The translations under genes were made by a program, and so were the position numbers. A stretch of DNA of 62,733 nucleotides, the filler included, from Kipferlia bialata (lineage: Eukaryota): the NCBI GenBank assembly GCA_003568945.1. It is 4 parts of 4 records of this genome, joined end to end, with 100 filler letters (N's around TTAATTAATTAA, not from the genome) between each part and the next. Parts side by side here need not be neighbours in the genome. Positions count along the whole stretch, not along the records: positions 23,372 to 46,584 come from BDIP01000265.1; 3 more parts are not named here. The stretch is one strand, 5' to 3'. The notes beneath the pieces were generated by a model. That model saw only the letters and a list, made by a program, of their open reading frames with translations. It was not told the DNA's origin and searched no databases. Below, one piece after another: positions 17,095 to 61,893 of the stretch. How positions within the stretch are numbered: the first letter of the stretch is position 1; each line of letters opens with the position of its first letter.

Positions 17095-18274
17095 GTAAGT
17101 GTCCCTACACGCAAGCTAATCATCACCTGAACTGTCTCTTTTGGTCATCCCCAGTTGATGTGGAGATACCATGCTCACATACCCCCATAACTATGTATAT
17201 ACTCTATACTGACCCCCCCCCCCCCCCCCCCCCCCCCTACCCCCACCCCCCCANNNNNNNNNNNNNNNNNNNNNNNNNNNNNNNNNNNNNNNNNNNNNNN
17301 NNNNNNNNNNNNNNNNNNNNNNNNNNNNNNNNNNNNNNNNNNNNNNNNNNNNNNNNNNNNNNNNNNNNNNNNNNNNNNNNNNNNNNNNNNNNNNNNNNNN
17401 NNNNNNNNNNNNNNNNNNNNNNNNNNNNNNNNNNNNNNNNNNNNNNNNNNNNNNNNNNNNNNNNNNNNNNNNNNNNNNNNNNNNNNNNNNNNNNNNNNNN
17501 NNNNNNNNNNNNNNNNNNNNNNNNNNNNNNNNNNNNNNNNNNNNNNNNNNNNNNNNNNNNNNNNNNNNNNNNNNNNNNNNNNNNNNNNNNNNNNNNNNNN
17601 NNNNNNNNNNNNNNNNNNNNNNNNNNNNNNNNNNNNNNNNNNNNNNNNNNNNNNNNNNNNNNNNNNNNNNNNNNNNNNNNNNNNNNNNNNNNNNNNNNNN
17701 NNNNNNNNNNNNNNNNNNNNNNNNNNNNNNNNNNNNNNNNNNNNNNNNNNNNNNNNNNNNNNNNNNNNNNNNNNNNNNNNNNNNNNNNNNNNNNNNNNNN
17801 NNNNNNNNNNNNNNNNNNNNNNNNNNNNNNNNNNNNNNNNNNNNNNNNNNNNNNNNNNNNNNNNNNNNNNNNNNNNNNNNNNNNNNNNNNNNNNNNNNNN
17901 NNNNNNNNNNNNNNNNNNNNNNNNNNNNNNNNNNNNNNNNNNNNNNNNNNNNNNNNNNNNNNNNNNNNNNNNNNNNNNNNNNNNNNNNNNNNNNNNNNNN
18001 NCCTCTTTTTTTTTTTCCCCCCCCCCCCCCCCCCCCCCCCCCCTCCACAGCCTATAGTATCGGTTGTACCAGTATATATTTGTAAATGTTTATAGTCTTT
18101 CTCACACTCCCATTCTCATTATTATTTCTTACTAATGAATCTATATGTTCATTTACATACTAATGTCTACACAAATTTATGTATTTATATACTACTTCAC
18201 ACACACACTCCAGGTCCCATACACAAATATTGTACATCTCCTGGTTAAACTCCGTAAGTCTTCTATAACTGTAG

Positions 18275-19233
18275 GTCACGAGGGTCAAGTTCTCTGAGAA
18301 GGGTGGTACTTTGCATCCATATATATACTCACATATATTTATATATATACTCATTAATGTATATATTCCTATCACGTATATGTATGTAACCCCTTACTGT
18401 AGGTGACCAGGGTCAAGTTCTCTGAGAAGGGTGGTACTTTGCATCTGGCACAGAAGGAGATCAAGATGAAACTGCCATTAGGTAGGATATAGTATATATA
18501 TATATACTCATATGTATATGTATAATGTATAGTGTGTAGATGTTATACTATACTGTATAGAGGGTGGTGCTTTCCATCTGGCACAGAAAGACATCAAGAT
18601 GAAACTGCCATTAGGTATATATTGTTCTATTCATAAGGGTACTGATAATATATGGAATTATAACTTTATATACAAATAAGTACTCTGCACCTGGCACAGA
18701 AGGAGATCAAGATGAAACTGCCTCTAGGTAGGCTATACTATATGATATATACTCATGTGTGTGTATATGTACTGTACAATGTATGCTCTACAAAGTATAT
18801 AATGCAATTAGTATATACAATAGTATCTAGAGATCAAGAAGACACTGTCATTAGGGTGTATATATCGCAGTAGTGCGTATATATATATTGCATGTTGGAC
18901 TGTTATTGCTACTATTTTATGAAGTAATCGTTTGAAATAGTATTTGGCACAGAAAGAGATCAGGATGAAACTACGCATATGTTTGTAAACATGTAGTATT
19001 CAGTAAGTATAGCGTTCACTTCTGCTTAGTGGACTATAGGAAGTTTTAAGGCTTTTACTATCTTAACAACAGGTGCTGATGATGACACCCCTCTGTGCAA
19101 GATAGGGCGGAGACTGTGTGTGCTGTACAGCGATGAGTATGTGATGCACAACCTGGCAATGAGAAGGTATTAGATACATAGTATATCTGCAGGGATCATT
19201 ATATAGCGTGTGTAGCAATGGTGTTCATATTCA

Positions 19234-19268
<35 letters not shown>

Positions 19269-20620
19269 TTTGTGTGTGCTGTACAGTGATGAGTATGTCA
19301 TGCACAACCTGACAATGAAGAGGTATATATGTATATAGATATGTATCTAAATTGGTATATATTGATTCCAGGTCTCAGACCCTCCCAATTGTCAACCCCT
19401 TGAAAGAGTCTGATATATAGTGGGCCAATCTATGTCCATTGCTGTTCTAACTATATATTTATGTCCTCATACCAGGTCTCAGACCCTTCCCATTGTCAAC
19501 CCCTTGACAGAGTTCTGGGCCGACATTGAGCCCATCCCACACCCGACAGACCCCAATAAGGTATATATACACTTTCTAGTAGTATATTGTAATGTATGAT
19601 TGTATTATTAGTGATAAATATTCCATGTTCCATATTTTGTATGTTATACTAAATTGAGTGTGTTGGAATTTAGCCCATCCCACACCCCACAGACCCTAAC
19701 AATATACATGTCCTGCTGTTTAGATATTATTGTCTATCTAGTTATGCATCGGAGTTCCATACTCTTGACAGTGTACATATCTACAATAGAGTCTCATGGA
19801 AGGTTATACAGTTTGGAAAACCTGGGAGCAACACCACGTCCAAGACTGGGAAGAAGGCTGAGAACGTCGAGAGTGTGCTAGAGTTTGATATGCAGACGGG
19901 TATATCAAACTACATATGATATATGTGATCTCACTATTACTAAAACTACTCTGCAATATTATTAATGTATACATACACTATATTGTGTTATACGTGTCAT
20001 ATTGTTTGCTGGAGTTTGATATGCAGACAGGTACATCAAACTACATATTATATATGTGATTCATTCAACTATTACTATTATATGCATATAAATGTATCTA
20101 CTCTATATTATGTATATATATATTGTGTACTGTAGTTTGACATGCAGACTGGTTGGTCTTAGATACACTAGCTCTATGTACATATACTTACTCTATATGT
20201 CATTAGTATTCATTACATATACTATGTGCTGAAGCCCTCTTACCTTTTACCTCTAGGATTTCTCTCTAAACCTTGTGATAGTCTAATATCTAGGAGAAGT
20301 CAACCAGTTATTTCACACCTATATACATATACGAGTATATATATGTGTTTGGATATATGTAAGTGTATTATTATAAACACTACCTCTAGGAGAAGTCACC
20401 CAGCGGCAGTCCATCCCAACCTCTCTGCTGAAGAAGCTAAGGAAGGGATACGGAGATGATAGGAGGTTAGGACATTTTCTCTATCATCCTCACTATATTT
20501 CCATTTGTGTTTATGGTTACCCAGGGGGGACACCGATCCGTTCACTGAGTATGCTGTCTCATCGCCCCTTATCTTCCTCTCTCTCTCTAGAACCGATCCC
20601 TTCACAGATTCGTGTCCCCT

Positions 20621-20655
<35 letters not shown>

Positions 20656-21240
20656 AAAGAACCTAATCCCAAGACGGGACAGCGACCTCTCCCAGATTCG
20701 AGTCTCCTTCTTTGTCTCTCTCTCTTTCAATAGTCTAATCCCAAGATGGAACACCGATCCCTTCACAGAGTACGCTGTCGTTGGAGATGTGTTGCACATC
20801 ATACAGACAAGGTCAGTAAGAATATATATTCATATATATATGTATATATACATATGATAAATACTGTATATAGTACATATATATTACTATGAGCTATCGT
20901 ATCGTGAGAGGTCCTGCACGTCATACAGACCAGGTCAGTATGTGTAGTTATAATATGTGTTTCTCTTCACACTTATAGAGAGAGAAGTGTGTATATAGCA
21001 TTTGGTTGCAAAATCCACTGTATATCTCACTCCTAGTCAGTTCTGGGAGATATCCTTCCACTGGGCGTATAATCTAGTGAAGAGCGATTTCTATGCTATG
21101 GGACCTATTCCCTGTGAGGTAGATATGTATTTATGTGTATACGTATATATATATACACATATAAGGTAGGTAGTAGTCTCTTTCTCGATATCTCTATTTG
21201 GACTAGGTCTCTAATCAATGGGCCCTACTCCCGGTGAGGT
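18275..21240 (+). repeat. Cluster of intronic partial exon copies (echoes)
   Basis: Exon 18403-18481 is copied at 18275-18317, ~18560-18614, 18680-18727, ~18829-18855 and ~18945-18972; most later exons also have copies. Confidence 0.9.
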
Positions 21241-22552
21241 ATATATGTACAAATTCAGATATATGTACGTTCATGCCTATTTAGCTTCCCTAGGTTCGTT
21301 AGGTGTTCTATCTTTCTGTCTCAATGTAGAGATTTGTTCAAACATATCATAGTACAAACCTTTCGTTCAATCCTCTCACCTCTGTGTTCAGAATATAGGC
21401 CCGTATCTCACATTAGGTATTTTGCCCCCTTAAACATTGACCATATCTCTGTCTCCCTCGCTCTCTTCTGTATCTCTCTGTATCCACGTATCCTCACATC
21501 ATAGGTTTATAACCCTGCCGTCATTTGTTTTGGCCCGAACCTCTATCTAATAGGAGGCAAGTATCACGAGAGGTAGGGATCACTGCTATGGTTTTAGTGT
21601 TTTCTGTAGTACCATATTAGTGGTAATGAATTGTGTACATACTCATTCACATAAACAATGGGTATATTTGTTTTGGTTGTATCAGTATCAGTATTGATGT
21701 TTGATTGTCTTTGTTGTTAACCCTAGCACCGTCCATGTATACAACACCGAGACTGCCAAGTGGGCATGCCTAGCCACAGACTCCCCCTTTGCACTAGATG
21801 CATGTGTGGGTGTGGATATGGGAAACGGCAATGCCCTCGTACTAGGTAAGAGTGTCTTCTCAGCAACAATGAGTGTAGTAGTCTTGATACTCGGTTGTAT
21901 TGTATATCCGAGCATGTGTGGGTTCGGAGATGGGTACTTCTCTTAGGGACCAATACTCTCTCGGTGTGGATGTTATAGTGATACCCTCTTGTCCAGTGTG
22001 TGTGGGTGTGTGTGGGTGTTGATATAGGGAACAAGGAGGGCTCTGTTGCTATGTGTGACTCAATTTCTGTGGTAATGATAATCTGACGTGTTAGGCACTG
22101 CCCCAGTGGCACAGTCTTCAGACAGTGAGGGGTCTGAGAATGATACTGTAGACGACAAGGAGATACTATGCTACAGAGTATGCGTTGAGACATCGGGAGA
22201 CAAGGCACAAGGCGAGGAAGGCCTACTACCCAGCAAAGACTCTGCCTCCTTGTTAGAGAGCCAACCTGCACGCATGGAGACTCCAATACAGAAGAAGGAG
22301 AGAGAGAAGCGTGAGGTGGAAGCCGAGTGGGAGAAGTTTATGGAGAGGGAGAGAGAGAGGGAAGCTGAGGCAAGGGGAGAGTCGACCAACCTACTCGCTG
22401 AGGACTCTGAGGCAGAAACACATAAGGGTGGAGCAAGAGAGAGAGAGGCAGAGGATAGCTGGATGAGCTCCCCTGATTCCCCACCCATACCGACTAGGAG
22501 GAAGAGAGAGGCAGAAGCACCCGAGGACTCTCAGATGTCGCAGGAGATTTGA
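18403..22552 (+). CDS. Multi-exon protein with C-terminal Kelch-like blades, 5'-partial; two candidate last exons (21947-21978 or ~22096-22552)
   Basis: Exons splice in frame: VTRVKFSEKGGTLHLAQKEIKMKLPL|GADDDTPLCKIGRRLCVLYSDEY...|WNTDPFTEYAVVGDVLHIIQT|...VYNPAVICFGPNLYLIGGKYHE|TVHVYNTETAKWACLAT... Confidence 0.7.
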
Positions 22553-24811: not shown

Positions 24812-27800
24812 TCAGCTGTCTGTTCTGAACATGCTGAATGACCCCCCCTCTGTCTCAGAGTTGGCAGGGGTCAGTCTCTCCCTCTCTCCGGTGTTGGCAC
24901 CCTTCTCCTGGGGTTGGAAGGGAGACATATATACTATCACTATATAACAGGTTATATGTATGGTTTGCAAGATAGATGGAGAGTCGGAGGTGCCCAGTGT
25001 TGGCACTATTCACCTAGGGTTAAGAGGAAGAAGATCTATTTTTTGTATTATTGTCTATATTGTGATTGTCTCATACCTTGAGGTACCCTCCGTGGACGTA
25101 CACTCCAAACCCTGTAACGACCAGAATGACAGACACAAGCTGGGGTAAATTAATAACTGATATGGATAATACACTATAGATATTATCACACTTATAGTAC
25201 CCACCTCGTATGTAGTCCATGCCTCCCCATACAGCATGACACACCCTATATCAACATATATATACAGACACATATATATTTACTAATACACTATTAGGCC
25301 TACTTACATACCTTGTACGTGGTCCATGCCTCCCCATAGAGCATGACACACCCTATGATGACAACGACCCTTCTGATCATGTCCACAATGCCTGGGGGGT
25401 GAGATGCATATACATGTAGCTCATAACCTATATAGATACTATATCCGTACCTACAAACAGTGCCGATGCCACCATGCACGTGAGACTTCGAGTATATGTA
25501 CATATAATAATGAACATGTATTAACCAATATCTGAACCTACATATAGAGCTGCACGTGTAGAACTTGAACATATACCAGTATAGACACACTACAATAATA
25601 TAGAATCTATATACTAATATATACATATATTCTACACACATATATATATCCATACCTACAAACACTGAATACAATCAATAATCTATAAATGAGTGGTAGT
25701 GTATCTATATACTTAATGATGTACATGTATATATATATATATCCATACCTACGAACAGCGCCGATGCCAGCATGCACGTGTAGAACTTGAACAGATAGCC
25801 AAGCTGCTTGGACATGGCAACGCCTGAGGCTAAGACAAGGGAAAAGAACAAGAGGGATAACAATTTGACGACATTAAACACAAATACAGCCATCCTACTT
25901 GGCACTGGTATGACTGCAAACAGAGAGGATTATTCACCAGACTACGTAAATTAGAGTGCGCCAGTAAGCAATTTCAAATATAGATATACATAACAAATAG
26001 TGAATATATATATAATACTTGTCTACCTATTGACACTATCCAGTACATGTTGTCTGTGATGTCCCAATCCTGGTTCTCACCTGAGATAAAGGGCGTAGAG
26101 GGAATATAATGGTGTAGATAGGAGGATGAGTCAGCAAGGTGTATAAACATATACATCTGAGGATGTGGGGGATAACAAGGGAAAAGAGGAAGGTGAAGAC
26201 AAGTCATCCCAGACCTGGTTCTCACCTGGGGATGAGGGTGTATGATAGAATTATTAATTATTATCAACAAGTATACAAACACATAAAATATATATTCGTA
26301 TATATGCCACATACCCACGATCCAGGGCATTGGCAGGACCAGCAGGAACGACACGAGACCGTTGTAGAAGGCAGTCTGGGTGACATCCTAATAGTGAGTA
26401 ATAACACTAGTCACATGACATATACACGAGTATACTTGAATACATGGGTATATGAATGAGACCAGACCGTTGTAGAAGGCAGTCTGGGTGACGTCCTGAT
26501 GGTCAGCGTGTGTGATGATCGGAGTTCACTACAATATGTGAAGAGGGGGAGCAAATGAAGGTACTCTAAGAAGACAGTCTGGGTGGTTACGGCTACTGTA
26601 TATATACATATGTATATTATATACCTCCGCCGTCCTCTGGTTCTTGGGCACCCTGGCATCCTCAAACAGATATATATATATATATATATATATATCTATA
26701 TCTATATCTATATCATATACATATACATGTATACTACTATACATATGATATCATACCTACGCCGTCCTCTGGATATTGGGCACCTCGAACAGATATGATA
26801 GATATATTTATGAAATAGATGTAGATGTATAAACAGCAGTTACTACTATACTTCTATATACCTCCGCCGTCCTCTGGTTCTTGGGCACCCTGGCATCCTC
26901 GAACAGCACCTGGGCAAGGCAGGTCTGGAGGGCATCTGGAGTGAGAAGTACAGAAGTACAGAAGTAGAGAAGTAGAGAAGTACAGAATAAATACATATAT
27001 ATATTCATATGAAGCACATAATACATTAGAACAAGGCGAGACAGGTCTGGAGAGCATCTGGGGGGAGGTGGTATATATGTCACTAGAAATGTATATGTAT
27101 TAGGATCATAATACTAAGAAGAATACCATACCTATGAATGTACTGGTCAGGCTGCATACAAAGCTAAATCATAATTATATATATACCATAATTGTATATC
27201 TATATATGTATATAAAAATGGTTCATACCCATACCTATGAATGCACTGGCCAGGCTGCATGCAAATGCCATGGCATACCCAGTGTCCTTGAGGATGGGGT
27301 AGGAGGCGTCCTGATATAAGACATACTTCAACATATATATAATACCGATGTATCAGTCCAACATATGTCAGTGGTGACAAGCCCGATTGATATATGCTCA
27401 TATATATGTGCCCTATATATTTAAGCACTCATCTATATGCGTACATACCTCTGGTTCAAACCCTATGACGCATATGCCAGTGATGACAAGCCCAATTGAT
27501 ATATATATATACATATGAACCATATATATATATATATACGTATACATGTATCTATCTGTATGGGTACAAACCTCTGGTTCAAACCCTATGACGCATATGC
27601 CAGTGGTGACAAGGACAACGGCTATCAGGTTGTGGGGGGTGAACCTGGGTTAGGGGCTGAGAGAAAGAGAGAAACACATACTATGTATAAACCGCATATG
27701 GAAATGTAGGCAAAGGGGAAGAGGCTACTGCACACTTACGCAATTAGAATCAAGTTAGGTGCACGTACTTCATTCCAACCATGACCCTGGACAGAACAAT

Positions 27801-29433
27801 ATACATATACATATATATATATAATATACTACGAGGTAGGGGGTACTCACTTCTTGCCAACCATGATCCTGGAGAGTATAAGGTTGAAGGGGAGGCTGCT
27901 GCTCTTGATGATCATGTACACACTGCCTGAAGTAAGAGTATATACATGTATATATATATGTATATATATATATATATATATATAAGACTACGTATACAAA
28001 CATATATGTTGGGAGGCTGCAGCTCTTGATGATCATGTACACACTGCCTGGGGTGAGTGAATGTGTATACATAAATCATAAGAATACACATTCTATGACA
28101 CATATACTATTCGTAAGTATATACAGAGAAACAGGGGATAAGTGATATGCTCTTGATGATCATGTACACACTGCCTGGGGGTAAGAATATATAAATATAT
28201 GTATATAAGTACTCTACATAGACTATATATATAATGTATACTGTATAAACTCAAATGATCATGTACACAATGTCCGAGACACACACACACATCATATAAA
28301 TATGTGTGTGTGGGGAGGGGGGGGGGGGTGATTGTATATACATATATATATCAGGACTATTATATATATATATCCAATAACACCTGGGAGCGCATTGAGC
28401 CCTATGCTAAGGAGGCTGATGTGGACACCATCCAGGACACCCAGGAAGGTATACCTAGAGTGAGACTATCATATGATAATACAATATATAATACAATATT
28501 GTATATTCCAATTAAACACAAATAATGGTATATGAGATGTGGACACCATCCAGAACATCCAAGGAGGTGTATCGGGGGGTTAAGATATTAGGGTGGATAT
28601 ACTAATACCTGAGATTGAGACACACATATACAAACACATGACATATAGTTACACCACTGAAACAATCTAGAGTCCATACCTGGAGAATATCCTCTGCGAT
28701 TGGAATTATATACGTTTCAGAGGCAGTAAATGACACCACGTGAATATGGAAGATAGACCACCACTACTACCGGCACATGTATACCTGGAGAACATCCTCT
28801 TGAGGTGTGCCACCCACTCAAAGGATGGCTTGTGGTATGTGTTGTCACCACTGATACGCGTGTAGACCTAGGAGTCAGCATATGAATACATGTCCATACA
28901 GCAATATATACAGACCGAATATCTCCTATGAGAATGATACGATACTCTCATACCAGTGATGCTGCATTGGCAGGCCACCCAGCAATATCTATAAATATAT
29001 ATATATATATATATTTTTATATATATGCTATTCGTATGACATATATATATAATACTCGTATGATATGTGTATATACTATCATACCAGTGATGCTGCATTG
29101 ACAGGCCATCCAGCAACACACACACATATATATGATATATATGTCAGCCAGCAATATCTATACTTATATACATATCTCTTATTCGTTTGATATATATAGA
29201 TATATGCTTCGTATGGTATGTCTCCATACCAGTGACGCTGCATTGACAGGCCACCCAGCTATGTATACATCTATATATATATATATCTATCATAATTTAT
29301 ATATAATTATCATATGATGTATACTGTCCATACCAGTGATGCTGCATTGACAGGCCACCCAGCTGTGAGGAACACGGCACCCAGCCAGGGGTAGGAAATG
29401 CCTAGGAGTTAGATGTCAATAGTATAGAATGAC

Positions 29434-29470
<37 letters not shown>

Positions 29471-29984
29471 CTGTACCCAGCCAGGGGTAGAGGATGCTTA
29501 GAAGTTGGATGAATATGAGAGGACATATAATCACTATACGAATACTAGTGTAGAGAGAGAGGGAGAAAGGAAGTGGCGGGGGGCATAGTTCATTCCGGAC
29601 TTGGGATACCACCTCTTAGATGGTGGAGAGGAAAGGAATGAGAAGGTAACACATATTGCAGAGAGGGGCAAGTCGCTGAAAGTGTCCCAACATATATAGT
29701 GATACGGGAATTGACATAGGATGTTGAAGTGAAGGGGGGATAGGGGTACCTAGCACATCGTCGTTGTACTTGACCAGCAGAGACTGTGCACTGAAGCATA
29801 TCAGGAAGAGCAGAGACACTATGCCAGTCTTGACTGTGTGCCAGGTGACCATGTCACTCAGTCCCCCGCTCTCTCTCTCTCCCACACTCACACCACTCTC
29901 CACATCAGCCACGGTATCTACTGACCCACTACCAGTGTCAATTACAAGGGCATTGGGCCTTAGATACGGTCCCTTGCGCGTCAT
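24812..29984 (-). CDS. Drug/metabolite transporter (DMT) superfamily protein, purine-permease (PUP)/SLC35-like, many small exons
   Basis: The spliced product has ~10 TM segments: YTFLGVLDGVHISLLSIGLNALP|GSVYMIIKSSSLPFNLILSRIMVGKK|FTPHNLIAVVLVTTGICVIG..., DVTQTAFYNGLVSFLLVLPMPWIVG|E, VVIIGCVMLYGEAWTTYK|LVSVILVVTGFGVYVHG. Confidence 0.8.
25200..29495 (-). repeat. Cluster of intronic partial exon copies (echoes)
   Basis: Examples: ataccagtga(t/c)gctgcattg x4 (28950-29350), tgatcatgtacaca x4 (27905-28270), ctccgccgtcctctgg-like x3 (26625-26880). Confidence 0.9.
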
Positions 29985-30130: not shown

Positions 30131-33100
30131 ATGGTGCTTCAGTACCAGAACCTCTCTGGTGGTGACGGACACACCCATATATACACCCCATTAGACAGTG
30201 ATGGGAGCAGTAGCTCTGAGAGTGAAGGAGAGGGGGTGGTAGGTACACCCCAATCAGGTCAAGAGGGGGAGGGGGAGGGGGAGGGGGTGAGTAGGCTCAG
30301 CAGCAGCATGGCTAGGTGGGTGTTTATACGTAAGTACTCTACCATGTGTAACCACTTGACTATGTGCAAGTGGTCATTCACTGTCTGTATCAATCTAGAC
30401 ACATATTTATATCTATCCACTTCATACTCTGACCCCCAGACACCAGAGGGAACTGACCTCCAACAGATATGTTCTAATATATGTCTATATATACACTATA
30501 TACCTTGTTCTCTCTCTATATATATTCACTGACCCATCAGGCACCAGAGGGAACTGGCCTCCAAGAGAAGAGTGAGGGCAGCACCAGAGAGTGTCAAGGA
30601 GGCAAAGGCGGTACGTTGCATGTCTCCCTCTCTCTCTCTCTCTCTCTCTCTTTCTCCACAACCCCTCACTGTATATAGAGATTGAGATTGAGACAAGACC
30701 TATTGGGGTGTGGTTCAGTGTCTACCCCCCCCCCCAGATGAGTGCCTTTCCTCAGATACTATTCCAAAAATCTATTATATTATCCTATATTAATATATCC
30801 TATATTCTAGTGATACGCTATATACCCACTCACCCGTCAGTTCCTGCGCACATTCATCCCCTACCTGGTATTCCTGGGTCTGTTCATATGTGAGGTATAT
30901 GCCTCCTATCTCTCTCTCTCTCATTCATCCCCCCCCCCTCTCTCTTGGCTACTTCTCTTCTCTCCCCTCTCCCCGCCTCGTGGGCGAGGTTCTATTTGAA
31001 TACACGTTCCCTATGTATCTCTCTCTATCCTTCTGTCTCTGTTTGCGCAACTAGTTATTACCAATATTCACTCCTCTTCTTCTTATATACTACCTCATGT
31101 CCCTCCATCATGTCCCGATAGATGCACTAGTACCCTCCCTCTCTTTCTATGCATATATACTATATGTCGTTATACTACCTTCAGGTCTACATCATGTCTA
31201 GGGACATGCGGCACTTCCAACACCCCCTCCGTTCTCTTTCTATATGTATGTATCTATTAATGTATGTCAATGTATGTACCTAACCCCAGGTCTACATCAT
31301 GTCTAGGGACATGCGGCACTACTACTTCCTGAGGGGGATAGACAATGCAATGTGAGTATAGTATAGCCGTTGAGTCCCTAAAGAGACTATTTAACGCAGA
31401 TGGCAATATTTGTATTGTTGTGCAGTCTCATTATTGTTGCCCTCTCCCCCTAGGTTCGAGAGTACCAATGGATCCCCAGCTGCCAATGTCAAACCATACG
31501 AGGAGATTCCGGTGAGTTCATGAATGCATATACATAATATATTAAACATGTATCAGTTGTTTGTCGAGTCACTAGCCGAGGCAATGACACTATACCGAAG
31601 TGGGTGTCAGATGTCTCTTACGCAAGGGCTTTCCCTCATACTTTACCTCTCTCTCTCTCTCTCTCTCTCTCCACACCTTTTACCTTTAGGACTTTGCCTT
31701 GTACTTTGACTGGCTTGAAAGTCCACTCTTACTTGATAATACTGCTAGTGATAGAGTTGTTACAGTCCATTATACCTTTCTAACCTTAGGACTTTGCCTC
31801 CTACTTTGACTGGCTTGAGGGTTCAGTCTCCACATGGCTGGTGGCAGCAGACTACTACAATGGAGACCCCATCCATGAGGATAACATAGGTGCGTAGTTT
31901 GTTCGGTATAGTTGAGAGGGTGCACTATCTTCTGTATGGATACTCATTACATGCTATGCCCTGCACCAGTCCCCCATTAGTATCTAGAGAGTCAGAGATA
32001 TATGTGACTATGGCGTACATTAACATTGCCTATTGCTTATTGTTTCTAACACTTAGGCTATGCCCTGCACGAGTCACCTATATATATATACAAATATATA
32101 TATATAGTGTATATAGTGTATATATGCATGAGTGATGTATGCATACACATATATACTTATGCCAGGCTATGCCCTGCACCAGTCTCCCATATATTACATG
32201 TCACATTCGTGTATAGTTGTGTATATTGTGTATATTGTTATATACTCTACTTAACCCTTAGGCTATGCCCTGCACCAGTCACCCATCTTTGGAGGACTCA
32301 GACTCAGACAGGTATACATGTATTGTTATATGACAAGACTCAAATGTGAATATCACTACATATGCCTGGATGCATACATCAAGAAAAAAGAAGTGAAGAA
32401 GACTACTGTGCCCTAGCTGATGTTGATGTCTCAGATTGCCACAATAGTATTCATGCAATGGATCTCTCTAGCAGTCCTGTGTACTCACTATAGGTCAGAG
32501 CCACCCAGGAGGACTTCTACTACCCAGACACGGCAGAGGCAATAGGTATTGACTATATACATGCATGTATCATACTGTTTGAATATATATGTGCAGAGTT
32601 CTATCTCCAGACCCGGCAGAGGCAATAGGTATCACCCCCCCCCCACAAACACACACACACTCCCACACACACAAGTGAATCCGTCCATTAGTGACATTGT
32701 TTATGTATGTATTATTTAGTACTACTCTAATATGGCCAGTGCAATCAGGGTGCAAATACGTATTCACATACATTACACATATATATAAATTCCTCAATAA
32801 CCGTCGGCCTGTTAGACCATGTCTTCTACCCCGATGTCAGTGGCAGGGAGCCGCCACTCTCTCTCTCTCCCTATATATATATATACAACATTGTACTGAC
32901 GCTTATACCAGGCCTCCTAGACCATGTCTTCTACCCCGATGTGAGTGGGAGGGGTCACCATGAGGACACTGCCATGCACTGCGGGGTGGAGTGGCAGAGC
33001 GCAGAGGACCTAGGCGGAAAGGTATATTCATATATTCATACAAATATATATTTATTTGCATGTGCATAATAGTGTATGTAGTGTGATATGTATCACACTG

Positions 33101-36100
33101 CGGGTGGAGTGGCAGAGCGGAGATGATCAGAGGGAAAGGTATGGATCTAGGGAATATATATATACCTGTGTATAGTTTCACGCATGGATATGCATTACAC
33201 TGTGGGGTGGAGTGGCAGAGCGCAGAGGAGCTGGGGGGAAAGTTAGAGTACTTACACAAATTATATATGTATATATATGCTCGTATAATTCTTATGATAT
33301 CAACAATATGGTATCACACTGTGGGGTGGCAGAGCGCAGAGGAACTAGGGGGGAAGGTATGTATATATAGTTGTGTGGGGGAAGGTATATATATATATCG
33401 TTGTGTGTATGCTTGTGCAATAGTTTGTCTGTATGTACATACCCCTCACCCCTCAGATCTGGCGTGGCAAGGTTGGCCTGTACCCTGGGAGTGGGTATGT
33501 GGTGGACATTCCCATGGACAGAGTGACAAGTGACAGCATTATCGCACACCTTAAGGAGTGTCTGTGGCTAGATGAGAGTTCCAGACTTTCTGTCCTGGAC
33601 CTGACCCTCTACAACCCAGCGCTGGTATGTACACACTATACACACCATATATGTGTGAGAGTACTCACTATATATTTACAACCCAGCGCTGGTATGTGTG
33701 TACTCTACTATATAGTATTCACTGTATTTATATTATTCACTATACCGTATTCTCAGTACAACTCAGCACTCGTCTGGTCTCTATGTAATTGAAGTGTCCT
33801 TCTCCCTGACGTTAACCTTTGTGTAAGACACAAATCTCAACCCAATACGTAGTCATCCATCTCTATATTTACCCTCCCCCCCAGTGTTCCTTGTGATATA
33901 CATATGTATGTATACATACACACATACATATATATACATCTATATACCCTCATACCCAGGACGTGTTCCTTGTGACCAGGATAGGCATGGAGTTCCCAGC
34001 AGAGGGAGGTAAGGCCTAGACTGTACTATATATGTATACTATATGTATACATATATGTAATTCTTGTGGTCTAATAGTTTATGAAAACGTAAACTGTCTT
34101 CCTAACATAGTGGAATAGAAATGGAGTTCCCAGCAGATGGAGGTGGGTAACAATGGAATTGCATACATATAGATATTATAGTATAGATATTATTTAGGTC
34201 TTTCTGATCCTAGGGTATGTTCCCTTCCACCAATTCAAGGCATAGATATTCACTATATAGTATATCCATTTGAATATGTATATATATATATATATGTCTT
34301 TGTATGGCCTCCTTATCCCAGGCTGTGTCCCCTTCCACCAGTTCAAGACTGTTGATCTCTATCGGTATCTGAGACATTCAGACTGGTTCAGGTTTGTATA
34401 GTCTTTTATATGACAGTAACATCTAGCTTTTTCCCAACCAGAAGTATGTGGGAAGTCGTTCAACCCACATGATGGCCCCTCTCTCACACCTAGGGTATTT
34501 GTCGAAGGCCTAATCTCCCTCTACTTTGTCAAGTTTGCCTTGGATGAGCTCGAGGAGATATGGGTACGTGACGGAACTATCATAGTGTGAATTAACAAGA
34601 GTTTCCTGAAGATGACTCTTAGAGATTGGAGTGTTCCTCACCTCAGGACTGTCTCAGGCAGACCAGCCCCATTCGAGAGTACCAGGACTTCAAACACTAC
34701 TGCAGTGACATATGGAACCTGGTGGACTGGTACGGGTGTTTTCATCTGTCTAGACGTCACATACAGGATATTCTTTTTGATCCTTGTGCCCTTTTACCTG
34801 TATACTGCATACTGACAACCAGGATCAACATCCTTCTCTTTGCTGCCATTGTGGGTATCAATCAATTGCTTGTCTNNNNNNNNNNNNNNNNNNNNNNNNN
34901 NNNNNNNNNNNNNNNNNNNNNNNNNNNNNNNNNNNNNNNNNNNNNNNNNNNNNNNNNNNNNNNNNNNNNNNNNNCATACTGACCACTGACACCTAGGATC
35001 AACATCCTTCTCTTTGCTGCCATTGTGGGCATCAGGGTGCACACAGTCCTAGTTACAAGGGGGCTGATGGAGGTACGGGTGTCAGTATTGTCCGGATTCT
35101 ATATGTATAGCTCCAATAGTGTACGACACCAGGAGATGTATGACTCCTCTTAATAATACTACTGTGACTGTGGTTCTTCTATCAGTGTTCTATCACTCTA
35201 ACCACAGGCTGTGCAGGCTGATGAGACTGCCTATGTCAACTTTGAGCCTGTTGCATACACGATGGTGTACAGAGAGCTATCCTTGGTCGGTGCCCTGTGC
35301 TTCATGACAATGTTCAAGGTGGGTATATATGTTTATATATATATATGTAATATACATAGGCTCCATATATATAGGCTCTGAGTGCCCTGTGCTTCATGAC
35401 AATGTTCAAGGTGGGTTGTGTAATCAATTGCATCCTTAAGAGCATATGCCTGATGACAATGTTCATGGTGTGTATATGTATACATACCTTACCATATGTA
35501 TAATATTTTTCTTCCGTTCTTGTGGCCTGTTTTGTTTACTCTCACCTCAGTCCTTCAAGTTCTTTGCCGCCTCCCCCCGTCTGTCCATCCTGACCAGGTA
35601 TACAATACAATACAATATTGTTCTATATCATAGCGTTAATGGAAGGTGTTAGTAGTATCATCAGTCATCAGTTATGTTGTATTGTAGTCTGTCCATCCTG
35701 ACTAGGTATATGGTACTGTATATATGTATGTATATATACTATACTGTATATATATATACCACTCTGTCCATCCTGACAAGGTGCATAATACTGTATGTAT
35801 GTATATATATATAGTGACCATAAGACCCTCTATAGGTGACAGTAATATAATCAGTCCTCAGTTCTAATGAATACAATGATCTATTTGGTACTGACCATAT
35901 AGGACCATGACAGATGCTGCCAAGGACATTGTATATATATTATGAATAATGATTATTATTATAAGTATATATATATAACTATATACATACTATACATGAT
36001 ACTTATCATATAGGACCATGACCGCTGCTGTCAAGGTCCTTGCTATATACCCATCCATAAATATATAGAGATTAGTATAAGTATATATGCATATATATAT

Positions 36101-37759
36101 ATATATATTCAATTAGTATATGTGTACTAAGACCCTCACCTCTAGGACCATGACCGCTGCTGCCAAGGACCTTGTGGCCTTTGGATTCGTGTTCATAGTG
36201 GTGTTCCTAGGGTAAGAAGAGTGTTTTGCGGGTTTAGTGTCGTAGCTGCCTAATTGTATTACTGTATGACACAGGAACATTTCACTATATGCACTATCTA
36301 ACTCCCCAGCTTTGGCATGGCAGGTCATGTTGTGTATGGGGGTGACATGTTTGAGTTCAGCAACATGGGGCAGACAATGCTCTTACTCTTTAGGTACTGT
36401 TCTGTATACATACACATATATACAAGATATATATACTATGTAGACTATTCAGTGTGACATGTTTGAGTTCAGTAACATGGGGCAGACAATGCTACTGTTG
36501 TTTAGGTACAATATAGTATTTATATACTATATATGTATATGCATAGGATATACTATACATAGTGTATCCAGTATGACATGTTTAAGTTCAGCAACATGGG
36601 GCAGACGATGCTACTGTTGTTTAGGTATCTTAGTATGTGTATACATGCTATACATGTCTTTGTGTAGTGTATATTAATCTATGTATCCACTCTGACATGT
36701 TTGAGTTCAGCAACATGGGGCAGACAATGTATCGGAATACTCCCATGTACCAGTCCCTCCCCCATTTGTGTAGTAGCCATTAATTATAGTCTGTTTCAAC
36801 AGCTTGTCACTTTTCCATAATATCTCACTTTCCAGGTGGATCTGTGGCGACTTTGACTTTATGGAGATGTACTGGAGACACAGGGTGTTCACGTGCATCT
36901 ACTTTGTATCCTTCATGTCCCTGTGCTATCTGCTGCTCCTGAATATGCTGGTGGCCATATTGATTGACGCATTCACAGAGGTATGTGGGGTGATGTAGAG
37001 AAATGCTGTTCTGCTGTTATGTATATTGTGTCGATTATTCCCTACATACCTCACTCCAGGTCAGAAAGAACCCAACCTTCAAGAGAGACAATATGCTGAA
37101 ATTGGCCAGCGCAATTGTGAGGTACGCCAATCTTCTTATATGGGTGAAAACTACATTGTATACGACTTGTTAACACTCTCTAACCCGATAGGCAGAAGCT
37201 GGTACGGACCTTGACCATCAATGGCAGAATTGGAACATCAGGTTCGTAATATCAGAAAGCACCACCATTCTCATTTTGTTTACTACTTCTATTCTCCCCT
37301 TATTTCTCTTTATGTTCTCTTTCCCTTCTCACCCCAGGCCATTCTCGCCCCACCAGCCCCCTAGCGGCTGACCAAGGGTACCCACAGGCAGTGCAGGTAG
37401 GCATATACTGGATATGTCTACTATCTGTTAACTGCAATAGGTATCGTTATTAGGATAGAGAGGACTGTCTGATGCTCACTCTTCAGGTTGCGGACTCCGA
37501 CGCCCCCGAGTTGACAGAGACTGACACATCAAGTGAGAGTGAGACAGACACCTCCACCCACACCCACACCCACTCAGGTGACATGTCCTCTATCAATGAC
37601 AGACTGGCAGGGCTGGAGGTGTCGCTATCTCTCCTCCTAGCGTCCAATGCATCCCTGACAGCTGCTATGGATAGAATGGTGCAGAGGGAGAGAAAGAGGG
37701 AGAGGGAGAGGGAGGAGAGGGAGGTAGAAGCAAGAGAGTTGCCTCCAGACACACAGTGA
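30131..37759 (+). CDS. PKD2: Polycystin-2 (TRPP) family cation channel, >20 exons
   Basis: TOP-domain motifs IFGGLRLRQ|VR, YPGSGYVVDIP and LWLDESSRLSVLDLTLYNP. Channel motifs DIWNLVDW, LSILT|RTMTAAAKDLVAFGFVF, FGMAGHVVYG, GDFDF (pore) and LLLLNMLVAILIDAFTEV, then a C-terminal coiled coil. Confidence 0.92.
31180..36735 (+). repeat. Cluster of intronic partial exon copies (echoes)
   Basis: Examples: gctatgccctgcac x4 (31953-32280), gtggcagagcg...aag x4 (32990-33357), tgacatgttt.agttcag.aacatggggcagac x4 (36343-36730). Confidence 0.9.
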
Positions 37760-41546: not shown

Positions 41547-41797
41547 CGACTATCTACTAGAGAGTCACTGACTGGTAGGCACTGTTACACTCTAGGATAC
41601 ATCGTACTCAGGTGAATAGTATTCACTGAATACTCAACAACCCGGCAATGAATAGAACATACGACAAGTGAGGAGAGTAAACGTCTCAGAAGCAGTAAAT
41701 GGTTTTGAACCTTTCCAGTGTAATTCGCGTTAGATAGCTGTATGCCTAAAATGAAGATCTACTAAGAGATCTTAATATACCCTCAATTTGGACAAAA

Positions 41798-56362: not shown

Positions 56363-57309
56363 GCATCATGTTTGGTCTCCTTGTCCTGGCCGGTGGCTGG
56401 TGGCTCATGGTGCACGTGCTGATGTGAGTGGATAGTATTATATACTGAATATATAGTATGTAGTGTATATAGTGTATGATATATATGTATGTGCTCATGT
56501 ACGTACGAGTAATATTCCCTGCTTCCTCCTTAACTCCCCCTCCCTATTCACTATAGTTACTGCAGGGTCGTCAGTATTATTGTTCCTCTCCCTCTCTCTC
56601 TACACTATTTCCCTCTATATCCTATTCTTAACGCATACCAGGGTATCATAGTGATGATTCTCTCTCTCCCCCACTTTCTCCTTCTCTCTCTCATATTTCT
56701 ATCACTATATATACTAATGTTTAGGGTCCTTGGCATCATAGTGATGTGTCTGTTCCCAGTGCCCATAGTGTATGGTATCATGGGTACGTTATGGACATAT
56801 GTATGTTATGGGTATATGCATCTATATTTGTATGTATGTAGACATTATTTCATACTGGAGGGGTAGAGAGATGAGCCCATAGTGTATAATGTTAGGGTAC
56901 ATTGTTTGTGTATATATACAGCAATAGGTATATGTCTCATACCAGTGTTCCGCAGTGTCAACAGTGCCCCAGACCCCCCCCCTCTCTCTCTCTCTTTCTT
57001 TCTCTGTATATATATGGCCATATATTCCTAATAACAGTCTTCCGCAGTGTCAACAACGCCCCTGACTCCAAGAAGAGCCAGAAGACCAAGAAGGAGGAGG
57101 TATCTATACAGATAGAGTATATATATATATAATAGAGAGAGATAGTAATGCCCCAGACTCCAAGAAGAGCCAGAAGACAAAGGAGGAGGAGGTATCTATA
57201 CAGATAGAGTGTGTATATATATAGAGAGATAGAGAGAAGGAGAGAGAGAGAGAGACTCCAAAAAGAGCCAGAAGACGAAGAATGAGGAGGTATAGAGAGA
57301 TTATATATG

Positions 57310-57345
<36 letters not shown>

Positions 57346-57758
57346 AGGAGAGAGATTACAAGAAGAGCGAGAAGACGAAGAAGGAGGAGGTATGGAGAGT
57401 GTATGTGTCTATGTACGTCAAGCGCAAGCATATCGCTCTTTCCTATGTATCTTAGTATCTAGCATGGGTATTTCCTCGTACCTTGCCCACATGCTTGCTG
57501 TCAATGCTTTATATATATGTATCTCTATCTCTCTCGCCCTCTCTCTCTCTCTCTCTGAATCTATTTGTCTCTCACACCAGTACCTTGCCCATATGCGTGC
57601 TTGTGCATATACTCATATATATATCTATATTTATATATATATGAATGTATATATGTATATATGTAGTGATGGTATGTATCTAACCCTAGTACCTAGCCCA
57701 CATGCGTGCTGTCAATGCTGCCAAGGCAGCTGAGCAGACAGCTGAGGACGCTGTCTAG
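56363..57758 (+). CDS. C-terminal exons of a membrane protein, 5'-partial
   Basis: GIMFGLLVLAGGWWLMVHVL|VLGIIVMCLFPVPIVYGIM|VFRSVNNAPDSKKSQKTKKEE|YLAHMRAVNAAKAAEQTAEDAV*. Confidence 0.6.
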
Positions 57759-58247
57759 AGAGGGAGAGGGAGAGGGAGCGAGAGAGAGAGAGAGAGAGAG
57801 AGTATGTAGTAGTAGTCTGCTGAGCAGACAGCTGAGGACGCTGTATAGAGGGGCTAGAGGGAGAGAGAGGGAGAGAGTATGGAGTAAGCGTACTAGGTCT
57901 AGTAGTCGGTAGTTAGAATTGAAGTGCAGGAATGCACAGACACCGCGTTTCACACGTTCCTCACGTTTCAGACGCTATGGTTAATAATAGAACTCATAGT
58001 ATATTCGTGGAACTGGGATTATTGAATTATCAATATGAGTTCCCTCTTCTCTTAGATACCAAAAGAGAGAAGTAGATATCTAACACCTGATTCTCTCTAT
58101 TCTTCATTGGTACACAAAACAAGTAACAGAAATTGGAAACATACACTGAAAACAACACACTTAAAGAATGTCTGTAATAGGCACTTGATAATAAGGCCCA
58201 TGCTACAGCGACTGCAGCGTCTCAGACGTCTCGGGCGTCTCGACCGT

Positions 58248-59136
58248 TCACACCTCCGGGAACAAGTGCCTGAAGAGTGTTGGGTTGAAGTCTGGGAAAG
58301 ACTTGAAACCTGGGTGTCAGCAACTACACTCATTTGGATAGGAATCAATATAATGAACACATACTGTGCAGAAGTTAACATCCACCGCACTCAGGACATA
58401 GTGTAGTATATATTAGATAGATATAATAGGATATATATAATACAGTTCTCTACAATACACATACAAATTGTATAACATATACATATGTATATAATACCTG
58501 GGCAGTAGTTGACATCCACCACACTCAGGATGTGTTTTGTTAAGAATAGTACAGTATATAATAACAGTATATACAATGAATACATAATGTAGATGTATAT
58601 ATACCTGGGCAGTAGTTGACATCCACAACACTCAGGACACTGGACCCTCCCTCTCCATCTCCCTCTCCCTCTCTATCTCCCTCTGTCTTTCCCTCTCTAT
58701 CCCCCTCTCCCTCTCTCTCTCTATCCCCCTTCCTGTCCAGAATGACATCGATGCCCAGCATGCTGACACTGGAGGTTAGAAATGTGAATATATATACCCA
58801 TAGTGTATTTACATAAAAGCATATATATATGCACATATACATACTTTCATTCATCGGTACCAAGAATGGTGACATCAAAGGACTACTAGTCATAGATATA
58901 CTCATACATACTCACTTTAGCCTGGCCGATAGGGCCAGACACGTCTTCCTAAGGACAGACAGCTCAGCCTGGGGTGAATAATAGGGGGTAGAAGATGAAG
59001 AAAGGGTGTAGAAGGAGAGAGAATAGTCTTCCTAAGGACAGACAACTCAGCCTGGGGTGAATATACTATATATTCACCACACACGCATACATATGGGGTG
59101 CAAGGAGGTATGAAGAGTGAAGGAGGATAGAAGTAG

Positions 59137-59182
<46 letters not shown>

Positions 59183-61316
59183 CACCTCAGACAGGTTGTG
59201 GGGTGTCACTGGGCTGGAGCGCATGAAGGACTGGGGGTAAGGGTAGATAAGGGAACCATATTCAATAAGAAAATACACATATTCCATATATATATATCTA
59301 CTCACTATTACTATATACTCACTACTGTTATACACAATACACATATATATATCTGGAGCACATGACGGACTGGGTACAAGGGAGGGATAACATATACGTA
59401 TCATAAGTGCGTACTATATATACAGATATTACCTACAAAGATATGGAGGGCAAGAATGATAGGGAGTATGGGGGTAGACTCTAAAAGAAATAGATGATAG
59501 TGGGAAGAACACAGAGGTCAAGGCAAATTAATATTCAATACATATTACACATATAGAATATTCATATAGAAAATATATGTACCTGACTGTTGAATGGGAC
59601 AGTGTCCACAGCAGGGTCAGAGAGTGATATATAATGTTACATGAACTCATAAAATAATACATTATAAGTGTAAGTTGTCTATATAGTCATTGTTATAGTG
59701 TCAATTAAGTCTCATACTGACCTGACTGTTGAATGGCACAGTGTCCACAGCAGGGTCAGACAGAGTGCGGACTAGGGCCTGGGAATAAGGGCGTAGAGGG
59801 AATGCAAATCAAAAATATGGTATCCCGTACCTGTACTGGCTCTGACACGTCTCCGCATATCACGTGCATACATGGACATATATATATATAAGTGTGTGTG
59901 TATATATACATACATATATTGCTTACACTTATACACTCTATGTATACCTGCACCGGTTCTGACACGTCTCTGCATATCACGTGCATGGAGTCACCGATCA
60001 TATAGACCTAAGAATGAGGGGGTAGCAATCTAATTGAGGGTGTATACTCAGGGTGTATAATGGTGTAGTCCATGAATTGGCAAATGGGAAGGAAATAGAT
60101 GTAAACTAATTTCTATATCTGACAACACTCTCACACCTTGTACACTGTGCTGTTCAGTAGGAAGGGCATGAATAAGGGTGTAGCACAAGAATATGGGTGT
60201 ATAGGTGCAACTGCTTATAGTACAGTAAGATCAAATAGAATATATATATATACCTTGTACACTGTGCTGTGCAGTAGGAAGGGCATCGCAATGACAGCCT
60301 CCCTGCACCCTTTATCCTCTGTGCTAGACCCTTTATCCACTAGGGAGAGAGAGGTGTCGGCGGCACAGAGCTGCAGACTGGGTCTGAGTGGAAATTAAAT
60401 AAACACGCATACATTCAGATATGCATATATATACCCATTTAGATGGAGAGCTGCCTACACTACAATAAAATAGGTATAATAATTAATATTGGCAATAATT
60501 ATTAACATATACAATATATTCTACATGCACTATATATATACCTGTGACTGATGCTGGGCCCACAGCCCCAGAAGGGCAATATATATATGTGTATATATGT
60601 AAATGTATGTAAATAGTAATAATGTATTTATGCATATATGAACTATACATATATATATAGTACCTGTGACTGATGCTGGGCCCACAGCCCCAGAAGGGCT
60701 TGAGGATGGTGATGCCTGAGTGTAAGGGTGAAGAGGGAGATCAATATGGTATACAAAGAGAAGCTAAGAATAATAGATTTTATGAAAACACTGGTGAACA
60801 TAGAACAATGGGTGGGTGAACGAGCCCATGAAAGTTGAGAAGTGTCCGAATCATACCTCTGAGTTATCATTATATATGTATTTATACAATAAGTAATATA
60901 CATGCCTGGGTATGGCAGGTTGACATAAGGTATATGTGAATTCATATACTCATATACAAATACTATTCATATGTATACATAAATATATGTATATATTAAT
61001 ATATTTATACACATATATACTAATGTATATATACTAATGTAAATATATATACACATATATACCTGGGTATGGCAGGTTGACTAGAGGGGGTGTGGAGACA
61101 GACACACCACTATCTCTCTCCCCCTCTACACCCCTATTCAGGGTCTGTGACACATCCTGGACAACATCAGACAGGACTGTCGACATGTCCCTCCTGATGG
61201 TTAGATAAGTATACATTTATACACATATATATATATACATATATACAATATATATACTTATACACAATACAGACAGTACAGTGGACATGTCCCTCCTGAG
61301 AGTTAACAATATACAT

Positions 61317-61347
<31 letters not shown>

Positions 61348-61860
61348 GATATATTGTATACTCATATGAACTGCAATATATATATGCAATAGTAACATGA
61401 CGACATCAGACAGGACAGTCGACATGTCTCTCCTGACAGGGTTAGATTCACAGCAATCTACACTTAGATTGTATATATACATATTAATCATAATAAGATA
61501 AATTATAGAGGACAGTGGACATATCTCCCCTTAAGGCTATATATGCATTTATAAATATGCACATATATATAATTCATATTCTACTACCCAGGCACATGGA
61601 CGATCTGGTAACATATGGTGGATATGCATATATGTTCCATAGAGAATGTAAATTCATACCTATCCAGGAAAGGCTTCACACTCATGACTGGGTCCAATAC
61701 CCTGATGCCCGGCTGGACGGACAGACAGTGGGAGAGGTCAGACAGGAGGTCCCAGTCAATACCTGATATAAGGGTGTAGAGAGAGAGAGAGAGAGAGAGA
61801 GAGAGGCAGTAGTAGAGGTCAGACAGGAGGTCCCAGTCAATGCCTATGGTTGGTACTATT

Positions 61861-61893
<33 letters not shown>

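What the first reader, a model, noticed from the sequence alone, without database searches (positions are those of the whole stretch)
36310..36735. Echo copies differ from the functional exon almost only at synonymous sites
Seen here: the PKD2 exon end AGC...ATG CTC TTA CTC TTT AG|gt (to 36393) versus the echo AGT...ATG CTA CTG TTG TTT AG|gt (36454-36505) has 6 substitutions and the identical peptide MFEFSNMGQTMLLLF. Hand counts of synonymous/total differences for other pairs: 18680-18727 4/4, 18275-18317 2/2, 26454-26495 4/4, ~61400-61436 3/3, ~25205-25248 3/4, ~59830-59870 3/4. That gives 25 of 27 in seven pairs. A dead copy should take mostly non-synonymous hits (roughly 40% synonymous expected even when the live exon's drift is included). 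Inference: echoes were under coding constraint for most of their divergence. They may be former functional exon edges or alleles archived by recombination, be swapped back in by conversion, or be spliced in. Caveat: I picked the clearest pairs, so ascertainment bias is possible, and more decayed copies with non-synonymous changes also exist.
Basis: partly seen in the sequence, partly recalled or inferred. Interest (0 to 1): 0.9.

Follow-up and report, generated by a model that had tools for sequence, protein, structure and literature searches.

The report
Archived exon edges stacked in introns
In five genes of this intron-rich single-celled eukaryote, most introns hold stacked copies of the neighbouring exon edge that differ from the working exon more often at silent positions than dead DNA should, likely because they are old working versions captured from other alleles by unequal recombination.

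Summary
The seven hand counts are exact (25 of 27 synonymous) but cherry-picked. A nucleotide-only search of 60 introns in five genes finds 79 echoes in 43 introns; 127 of 228 differences (56%) are synonymous, against 27% for a dead copy and 40-42% with live-exon drift added (0 of 240 null simulations reach it). So 'almost only synonymous' is wrong, but an excess is real: four-fold sites differ 21%, zero-fold 5%. Echoes are ~110-nt tandem units (exon edge, splice site, intron piece). Their splice motifs score like working ones yet match their own live site at only ~50%; flanks are mostly unrelated; echoes also differ from each other at silent sites. One spliced RNA contig uses only the live exons; DNA depth is single-copy, and one gap hides about four perfect 119-nt units. 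Best reading (0.55, inferred): a tandem duplication founds an array, then unequal exchange between strongly diverged alleles stacks formerly live edges in the intron, where they decay. It predicts ~15% silent-site diversity and unalignable introns between isolates; no second isolate was found to test it.

The parts
36310..36393 (+). Live exon 19 of the PKD2-like gene; its last 52 nt are the parent of the focal echoes
   Evidence: Open frame in the 24-exon model; spliced RNA contig covers it with no other letters and runs on into exon 20
36454..36505 (+). Echo 1: copy of the exon end, GT kept, 6 synonymous differences
36573..36624 (+). Echo 2: GT kept, 6 synonymous and 1 non-synonymous difference; shares five leucine-codon changes with echo 1
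36693..36729 (+). Echo 3: 37 nt identical to the live exon, stops 14 nt short of the donor
   Evidence: its continuation is seen as a loose end of a DNA contig
36343..36729 (+). Whole focal array: period 119 nt, 3.3 copies, 79% matches; the three echoes begin within 1 nt of the same exon position
30131..37759 (+). PKD2-like channel gene, 24 exons, 24 echoes in its introns
   Evidence: exons 15-19 confirmed by one RNA contig
34876..34974 (+). Assembly gap likely hiding about four perfect 119-nt copies of the exon-15 acceptor unit
   Evidence: 149-nt contig (119 words of 31) that loops back, depth 4.0 times its neighbours
35598..36145 (+). 548-nt intron with two donor-type and two acceptor-type echoes, removed from outermost site to outermost site
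   Evidence: RNA joint skipping 548 nt, GT..AG; echoes
18215..22552 (+). Gene A (5' end in a gap; likely kelch-like, by eye), 16 echoes including 18275-18317 and 18680-18727
24812..29984 (-). Gene B (multi-pass membrane protein, likely a transporter, by eye), 21 echoes including 25205-25249 and 26454-26495
56368..57758 (+). Gene D (small membrane protein), 6 echoes
58246..62325 (-). Gene E (resembles an inositol phosphate kinase from recall; no call confirms), 12 echoes including 59831-59869 and 61399-61432
57819..57848 (+). Echo of the end of gene D's coding sequence, stop codon included, one synonymous change; no splice site involved
   Evidence: period-90 repeat, read

Best explanation
The echoes are ~110-nt tandem units of exon edge, splice site and intron piece that are skipped in the one spliced transcript seen, and they are likely former working exon edges captured from diverged alleles by unequal recombination. 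Steps: (1) a local tandem duplication that covers only one splice site founds an array (shown: period 104-116 nt, shared far ends, one perfect array); duplications covering both sites would damage the protein and be lost (inferred). (2) Splicing keeps to the outermost sites (shown for one transcript; exon definition or first-site scanning inferred). (3) Because introns of different alleles no longer align, a homologue's live exon pairs as readily with an echo as with the live exon; an unequal crossover or long conversion then leaves that allele's exon edge with its own intron end in the echo position, and the reciprocal product can bring an echo back to life (inferred). (4) After capture the copy decays at all sites (shown: 101 non-synonymous changes, 3 stops, 5 deletions). 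The silent excess would be inherited allele difference, not present function.
For: Four-fold sites differ at 82 of 389, twice the 43 expected for dead copy plus live drift (p=1e-7). Silent changes are mostly private to single echoes: 36 of 86 private changes are synonymous against 24% neutral (p=2e-4); where three or more echoes overlap, 20 synonymous changes are private, 2 shared by some, 1 by all, which serial copying from a drifting live exon would not give. Echo-to-echo: four-fold 33 of 149, zero-fold 60 of 724. One allele model fits all four distances: silent diversity 0.146 (0.08-0.21), replacement 0.018, decay 0.032. Echo splice motifs score like live ones (donor 2.10, n=36, vs 1.75; acceptor 3.46, n=23, vs 4.04; random sites -0.9 and -7.3) though only 54% and 48% identical to their own live motif; random mutation to that identity gives -0.5 and -2.5. 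Only 6 of 77 flanks are clearly homologous, against 75-96% expected at 25% divergence with indels. Replacement changes are more conservative than random (p=0.005). No trend with rank in the stack and no overdispersion. Far ends within 2 nt in 36% of 39 pairs vs 12% (p=0.0002). One echo copies a stop-codon end, so the pattern follows the coding boundary, not splicing alone.
Against: No second allele was seen: the DNA run shows no other letters on 34975-36509 and the metagenome scan gave only 42-48% identical relatives. The model needs very high silent diversity and introns far more diverged than four-fold sites, neither measured. Echo-to-echo ratio does not by itself exclude extreme serial copying (bootstrap share at or below 2.2 is 0.18). 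Synonymous and replacement changes show the same GC-to-AT lean (p=0.53), where allele differences might be more balanced. Perfect young copies collapse in short-read assemblies, so the even divergence may be partly an artefact. Most gene models are by hand; RNA checks only five exons.
Confidence: 0.55

Rival explanations
1. Revolving door within one chromosome: arrays expand and contract between sisters, any unit can become the live edge by deletion, so echoes are under weak second-order selection for coding and splicing; no diverged alleles needed.
For: A perfect ~4-copy array exists; far ends are shared; explains star-like relations and working-grade motifs.
Against: Selection would equal deletion rate times cost; to reach a 4:1 ratio while echoes live long enough for flanks to saturate needs diversity near 1 per site (my population-genetic estimate, not a tool result). 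The predicted stronger conservation near the splice site is not significant (36 of 857 vs 49 of 821, p=0.12) and is matched by alignment overshoot in simulation.
Confidence: 0.15
2. Ordinary dead tandem duplicates: neutral decay plus drift of the live exon, fast slippage in AT-rich introns, and uneven mutation rates or chance give the pattern.
Against: 0 of 240 simulations with the same detector reach 56%; base composition of four-fold sites was corrected for; cannot give working-grade but different splice motifs next to near-identical exon parts; exon parts hold 5 indels in 2553 nt while flanks are saturated.
Confidence: 0.15
3. Echoes are spliced into minor or condition-specific mRNAs and translated, so they are under coding constraint today.
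For: GT kept in 36 of 40 and AG in 23 of 30 echoes that reach the splice site; motifs score like live sites; one possibly exonised echo in gene A.
Against: The one RNA contig joins across echo-bearing introns using live exons only, with no other letters; using an echo site keeps the frame in 5 of 78, an in-register swap is possible in 5 of 79, distances show no preference for multiples of three (27/22/29); echoes cover at most 74% of the exon and carry one splice site only.
Confidence: 0.07
4. The donors were paralogous or homeologous gene copies (for example after hybridisation or polyploidy) that are now lost, not alleles.
For: Even divergence without overdispersion suits a fixed split time; gives the same constrained divergence.
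Against: Up to four mutually unrelated flanks at one edge (0 of 27 echo-echo flank pairs clearly homologous) would need several donors; no second copy of exons 16 or 18 maps at 88% or more.
Confidence: 0.06
5. Assembly artefact: two haplotypes joined in tandem.
For: Short-read assembly with gaps; the DNA run may be the sample behind the window.
Against: A separately assembled 722-nt contig carries a live exon and several echoes in a row at depth 448, the same as single-copy exons (396-461); up to four copies per edge.
Confidence: 0.02

Closest known systems
Human F7 intron 7 minisatellite spanning the exon-intron boundary (PMC1557585, abstract read)
   Same: Tandem unit starts in the exon and carries the donor into the intron; downstream pseudo-donors stay silent and the first site is used.
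   Different: One locus, 37-bp units, pseudo-sites identical. Here ~110-nt units at 43 of 60 introns in five genes, on donor and acceptor sides, with different working-grade motifs, unrelated flanks and a synonymous excess.
Internal gene duplication and intron gain by tandem genomic duplication (PMC3443670, passages read; Gao and Lynch 2009 seen only in its reference list, not held)
   Same: Short tandem duplication inside a gene involving exon sequence and splice signals.
   Different: There a duplicated AGGT makes a new intron; here the copies lie inside existing introns, lengthen them by ~91 nt each and make no new intron (in-register swap possible in 5 of 79).
Tandem duplication by aborted SDSA finished by polymerase theta end joining (PMC7368036, passages read)
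   Same: Head-to-tail copy from an extended break end joined to the other end; a plausible way to found an array, or to capture a homologue's edge in one step.
   Different: Sister template, mostly 10-20 kb in worms, random position. Here ~0.11 kb, at coding boundaries, and shared far ends point to later amplification.
Tetrahymena 90-bp exon arrays shuffled by unequal crossing over (PMC6564038, passages read)
   Same: Exon-intron units multiplied and scrambled by ectopic recombination in a protist.
   Different: Whole exons that stay coding in one repeat family; here partial exon edges that are skipped, in unrelated genes.
Mutually exclusive tandem exon duplicates (recalled)
   Same: Neighbouring copies with a synonymous excess.
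   Different: Those are whole exons with both splice sites and appear in mRNA; echoes have one site and were not in the RNA contig.

Membership tests
Boundary-spanning minisatellite with pseudo splice sites (F7 IVS7 type) | Tandem unit that spans the exon-intron boundary | tested here: met
   Period 119, 3.3 copies at 36343-36729; 70 of 79 echoes reach within 4 nt of the splice site
Boundary-spanning minisatellite with pseudo splice sites (F7 IVS7 type) | Authentic outermost site used, pseudo-sites silent | tested here: met
   One RNA contig, exons 15-20 of the PKD2-like gene; minor isoforms not excluded
Boundary-spanning minisatellite with pseudo splice sites (F7 IVS7 type) | Units and pseudo-sites near-identical | tested here: not met
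   Motif identity 54% and 48%; 6 of 77 flanks clearly homologous; exception: the perfect array in the gap
Boundary-spanning minisatellite with pseudo splice sites (F7 IVS7 type) | Copy number varies between individuals | not testable with these tools
   One sample only; no second isolate
Intron gain by tandem genomic duplication | Duplicated AGGT serves as donor and acceptor of a new intron | tested here: not met
   In-register donor/acceptor pair possible in 5 of 79; copies lie inside existing introns
Mutually exclusive duplicated exons | Whole exon copied with both splice sites | tested here: not met
   Echoes cover 9-74% of the exon
Mutually exclusive duplicated exons | Both copies found in mRNA | tested here: inconclusive
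   Only live exons in the one RNA contig; contigs drop rare forms
SDSA/polymerase-theta tandem duplication | Head-to-tail copy of flanking DNA | tested here: met
SDSA/polymerase-theta tandem duplication | Microhomology or templated insertion at the junction; dependence on polymerase theta | not testable with these tools
   Junctions are too diverged; no genome held
Allele archive by unequal inter-homologue exchange (proposed here) | Divergence under coding constraint before capture | tested here: met
   Four-fold/zero-fold ratio 4.2 (3.1-5.7), neutral ceiling about 2.2
Allele archive by unequal inter-homologue exchange (proposed here) | Divergence under splicing constraint before capture | tested here: met
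Allele archive by unequal inter-homologue exchange (proposed here) | Echo variants occur as live alleles in the population | not testable with these tools
   No second isolate

The most novel reading that the evidence does not exclude
This genome runs a self-feeding revolving door at coding boundaries: alleles whose introns no longer align can only pair at exons, so unequal exchange keeps stacking other individuals' exon edges, with their own splice signals, inside introns and sometimes returns them to service. A single homozygous genome would then carry a readable archive of its species' alleles (about 15% silent diversity), and this process would be the main cause of intron growth in the affected genes.
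Probability: 0.4. Interest if true: 0.85.

Novelty: new variant of a known kind. Interest (0 to 1): 0.62.

Why it matters
If right, one genome yields population data (silent and replacement diversity, past alleles) for an organism with a single sequenced isolate, and shows a route of intron lengthening and splice-site turnover driven by recombination between alleles rather than by transposons. It also poses a testable splicing question: how a protist with ~100-nt introns passes over several working-grade donors and branch-point/acceptor sites to use the outermost pair. Practically, such echoes will mislead gene predictors and collapse in short-read assemblies.

Tried and rejected
No whole genome is held, so everything rests on this window: 60 introns in five echo-rich genes plus 49 roughly annotated control introns. 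Run search listed one DNA holder and one guessed-RNA run of the same sample; no RNA holder on record. Contigs were laid only on 34975-36509; echoes 2 and 3 and all other genes have no RNA check. Zero RNA cover over echo 1 and other echoes is not proof of absence. Metagenome scan with one PKD2 exon: 302 pattern hits, 2 distant relatives (42-48%), no second isolate. Homologue searches: one 37% hit without a name, none for the dynamin piece among longer proteins; the atlas did not answer; so the lineage is not established by any search. mRNA as template rejected: echoes keep GT/AG and intron motifs, not the next exon. Conservation gradient along echoes: not significant. Mutation direction: no difference between silent and replacement changes. 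Age order by rank: none. Frame preference: none. Gao and Lynch 2009 was not held. Earlier scan notes: none by place or by words. Pfam found nothing for two short PKD2 exons and only a sub-threshold hit for the gene E exon. First gene models had three boundary errors, corrected before counting; the possibly exonised copy at 19674-19702 is part of an exon in the model and is not among the 79.

Full report
Setting. The window is from an intron-rich eukaryote with short GT-AG introns. No whole genome is held. From recall the gene style resembles the free-living fornicate Kipferlia, but no call establishes the lineage (searches gave no named relative; some searches did not complete). I built exon models by hand for the five genes where short repeats cluster: all give open frames with 60 GT-AG introns. 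The focal gene carries polycystin domains in 2 of 4 exons scanned.

Is it real DNA, and which copy is used? Contigs were laid on 34975-36509. One RNA contig of 1079 nt runs through exons 15 to 19 with no other letters, shows GT..AG joints skipping 135, 548 and 98 nt, and continues into exon 20; it therefore uses the live exons and passes over the echoes, including four inside the 548-nt intron. Contigs drop rare forms, so minor isoforms are not excluded. In the DNA run a 722-nt contig holds a live exon and several echoes in a row at depth 448, like single-copy exons (396-461); no other letters were listed. A haplotype mis-join is thus unlikely, and this sample shows no second allele there. A 149-nt contig that loops back on itself at 4.0 times the depth (119 words of 31 letters) indicates about four perfect 119-nt copies of the exon-15 acceptor unit inside the gap at 34876-34974.

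The observation. For an unbiased set I aligned the 70 exon bases next to each intron against that intron, by nucleotide only; 2 of 7200 shuffled introns reach the threshold. This gives 79 echoes in 43 of 60 introns. Of 228 differences 127 are synonymous (56%); rates by codon position are 6.8, 4.5 and 15.6%; zero-fold sites 85 of 1678, four-fold 82 of 389; 3 changes make stops and there are 5 one-base deletions. Expectation is 27% for a dead copy alone and 42% with live-exon drift (p=2e-5). Simulations through the same detector give 39-40%, and 0 of 60 runs in each of four age models reach 56%.

Anatomy. Echoes are the exon part of tandem units: median period 115.5 nt on the donor side and 104 on the acceptor side; intron length is about 155 + 91 per echo. 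They cover 9-74% of the exon and one splice site; 70 of 79 reach within 4 nt of it, with GT kept in 36 of 40 and AG in 23 of 30. At edges with several echoes the far ends lie within 2 nt in 36% of 39 pairs against 12% by permutation, so stacks mostly descend from one founding duplication. The focal stack is a period-119 array of 3.3 copies. Echoes cluster by gene: 43 of 60 introns here, 2 of 49 in six other genes annotated roughly.

Where did the silent differences arise? At the 20 multi-echo edges, changes private to one echo are 36 synonymous and 50 not (neutral 24%, p=2e-4); changes shared by all echoes are 10 and 1, five of them the leucine cluster of the focal pair. In columns with three or more echoes synonymous changes are 20 private, 2 shared by some, 1 by all: not the nested pattern of serial copying from a fast-drifting live exon. 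Echo against echo, four-fold sites differ at 33 of 149 and zero-fold at 60 of 724; a ratio at or below 1.1 has bootstrap share 0.001, at or below 2.2 0.18. A model in which every copy comes from a separate once-live lineage fits the four distances with silent divergence 0.146 (0.08-0.21), replacement 0.018 and later decay 0.032. Replacement changes are more conservative than random. Divergence does not rise with distance from the live exon and is not overdispersed (1.04; continuous-age nulls 1.35-3.4), though collapse of perfect young copies may contribute.

The intron side tells the same story independently. Only 6 of 77 flanks are clearly homologous to the live intron end and 0 of 27 echo-echo flank pairs are; 25% substitution with up to 10% indels would leave 75-96% detectable. 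Echoes with no or one exon mismatch over 27-45 nt mostly have unrelated flanks. Yet, among echoes that keep GT or AG, motif scores equal those of live sites (2.10 vs 1.75; 3.46 vs 4.04; random sites -0.9 and -7.3) at only 54% and 48% identity to their own live motif (unrelated live motifs 39% and 36%); random mutation to that identity would give -0.5 and -2.5; a branch-point-like motif is in 20 of 30 acceptor echoes, 53 of 60 live sites and 91 of 661 random AG. The motifs diverged while under splicing constraint.

Present function is unlikely: besides the RNA contig, using an echo site keeps the frame in 5 of 78 cases, an in-register swap is possible in 5 of 79, and distances are even modulo three.

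Mechanism. Shown: tandem units, a perfect young array, shared far ends, skipping in one transcript, constrained divergence in exon part and splice motif, later decay. Inferred: duplications that cover one splice site survive; splicing keeps to the outermost sites; alleles with non-aligning introns pair only at exon sequence, so unequal crossover or long conversion between a live exon and an echo deposits the other allele's edge with its own intron end. Conversion on one chromosome alone gives equal silent and replacement divergence, and second-order selection strong enough would need implausible diversity (my estimates). An echo of a stop-codon end at 57819-57848 suggests the boundary of coding homology, not splicing, is what matters. 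If the organism is a fornicate (unconfirmed), passages of PMC8516963 report loss of NHEJ and Rad51A and two Dmc1 paralogues in that group, which would make homology-driven and alternative end-joining repair the norm; tolerance of mismatches by Dmc1 is recalled, not checked. Weak points: no second allele was found, silent and replacement changes lean equally to AT, and the needed diversity is high.

Known systems. Closest in form is the F7 intron 7 minisatellite (PMC1557585, abstract). Intron gain by tandem duplication (PMC3443670, passages), SDSA/polymerase-theta duplications (PMC7368036, passages) and Tetrahymena exon arrays (PMC6564038, passages) share parts of the mechanism but each fails a defining test. 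A Paramecium preprint (10.64898/2026.05.26.727746, passages) gave no readable diversity values. Eight searches of the held library (listings and abstract starts) showed no report of gene-wide stacks of exon edges with a synonymous excess; passages of PMC5874029 and PMC6679479 do not mention such repeats; supplements were not read and most subscription journals are not held. The scan's earlier notes held nothing.

Verdict. A real, statistically supported but overstated pattern; a new variant of boundary-spanning tandem duplication whose best explanation is capture of formerly live allele edges (0.55). Interest 0.62.

Noticed in passing
window 34876-34974: Assembly gap likely hides about four perfect 119-nt copies of the exon-15 acceptor unit (looping contig at 4.0x depth); other gaps may hide young echoes too.
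   Followed up: partly
window 19531-19560 and 19674-19703: In gene A an echo may have become exon: one of two acceptors that keep the frame (19674; the other, 19755, is weak) would put a ten-residue tandem repeat in the protein. No RNA check.
   Followed up: partly
window 57729-57907: Period-90 duplication of the last codons, stop and 3' flank of gene D, with one synonymous change: an echo without a splice site.
   Followed up: partly
window 38073-54218 versus 18000-37800 and 56300-62400: Echoes are all-or-none by gene: 0 in 41 introns of four genes, 3 in 8 introns of two genes, 79 in 60 introns of five genes; echo-rich introns are more AT- and TATA-rich (rough control models).
   Followed up: partly
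window 36380-36388: Five synonymous changes fall in three adjacent leucine codons just before the donor and are shared by echoes 1 and 2; a clustered event or selection near the splice site.
   Followed up: no
window 1217-1290 and 41798-41841: Perfect short tandem duplications (34 and 21 nt) outside coding edges.
   Followed up: no
window 23525-24544 and 42463-43476: Two intronless ORFs of about 335 codons that look related by eye, among intron-rich genes; the first has a single unnamed 37% relative.
   Followed up: partly
window 12505-12720 and 55607-55956: A few echoes also occur in two GC-richer genes on the minus strand.
   Followed up: partly
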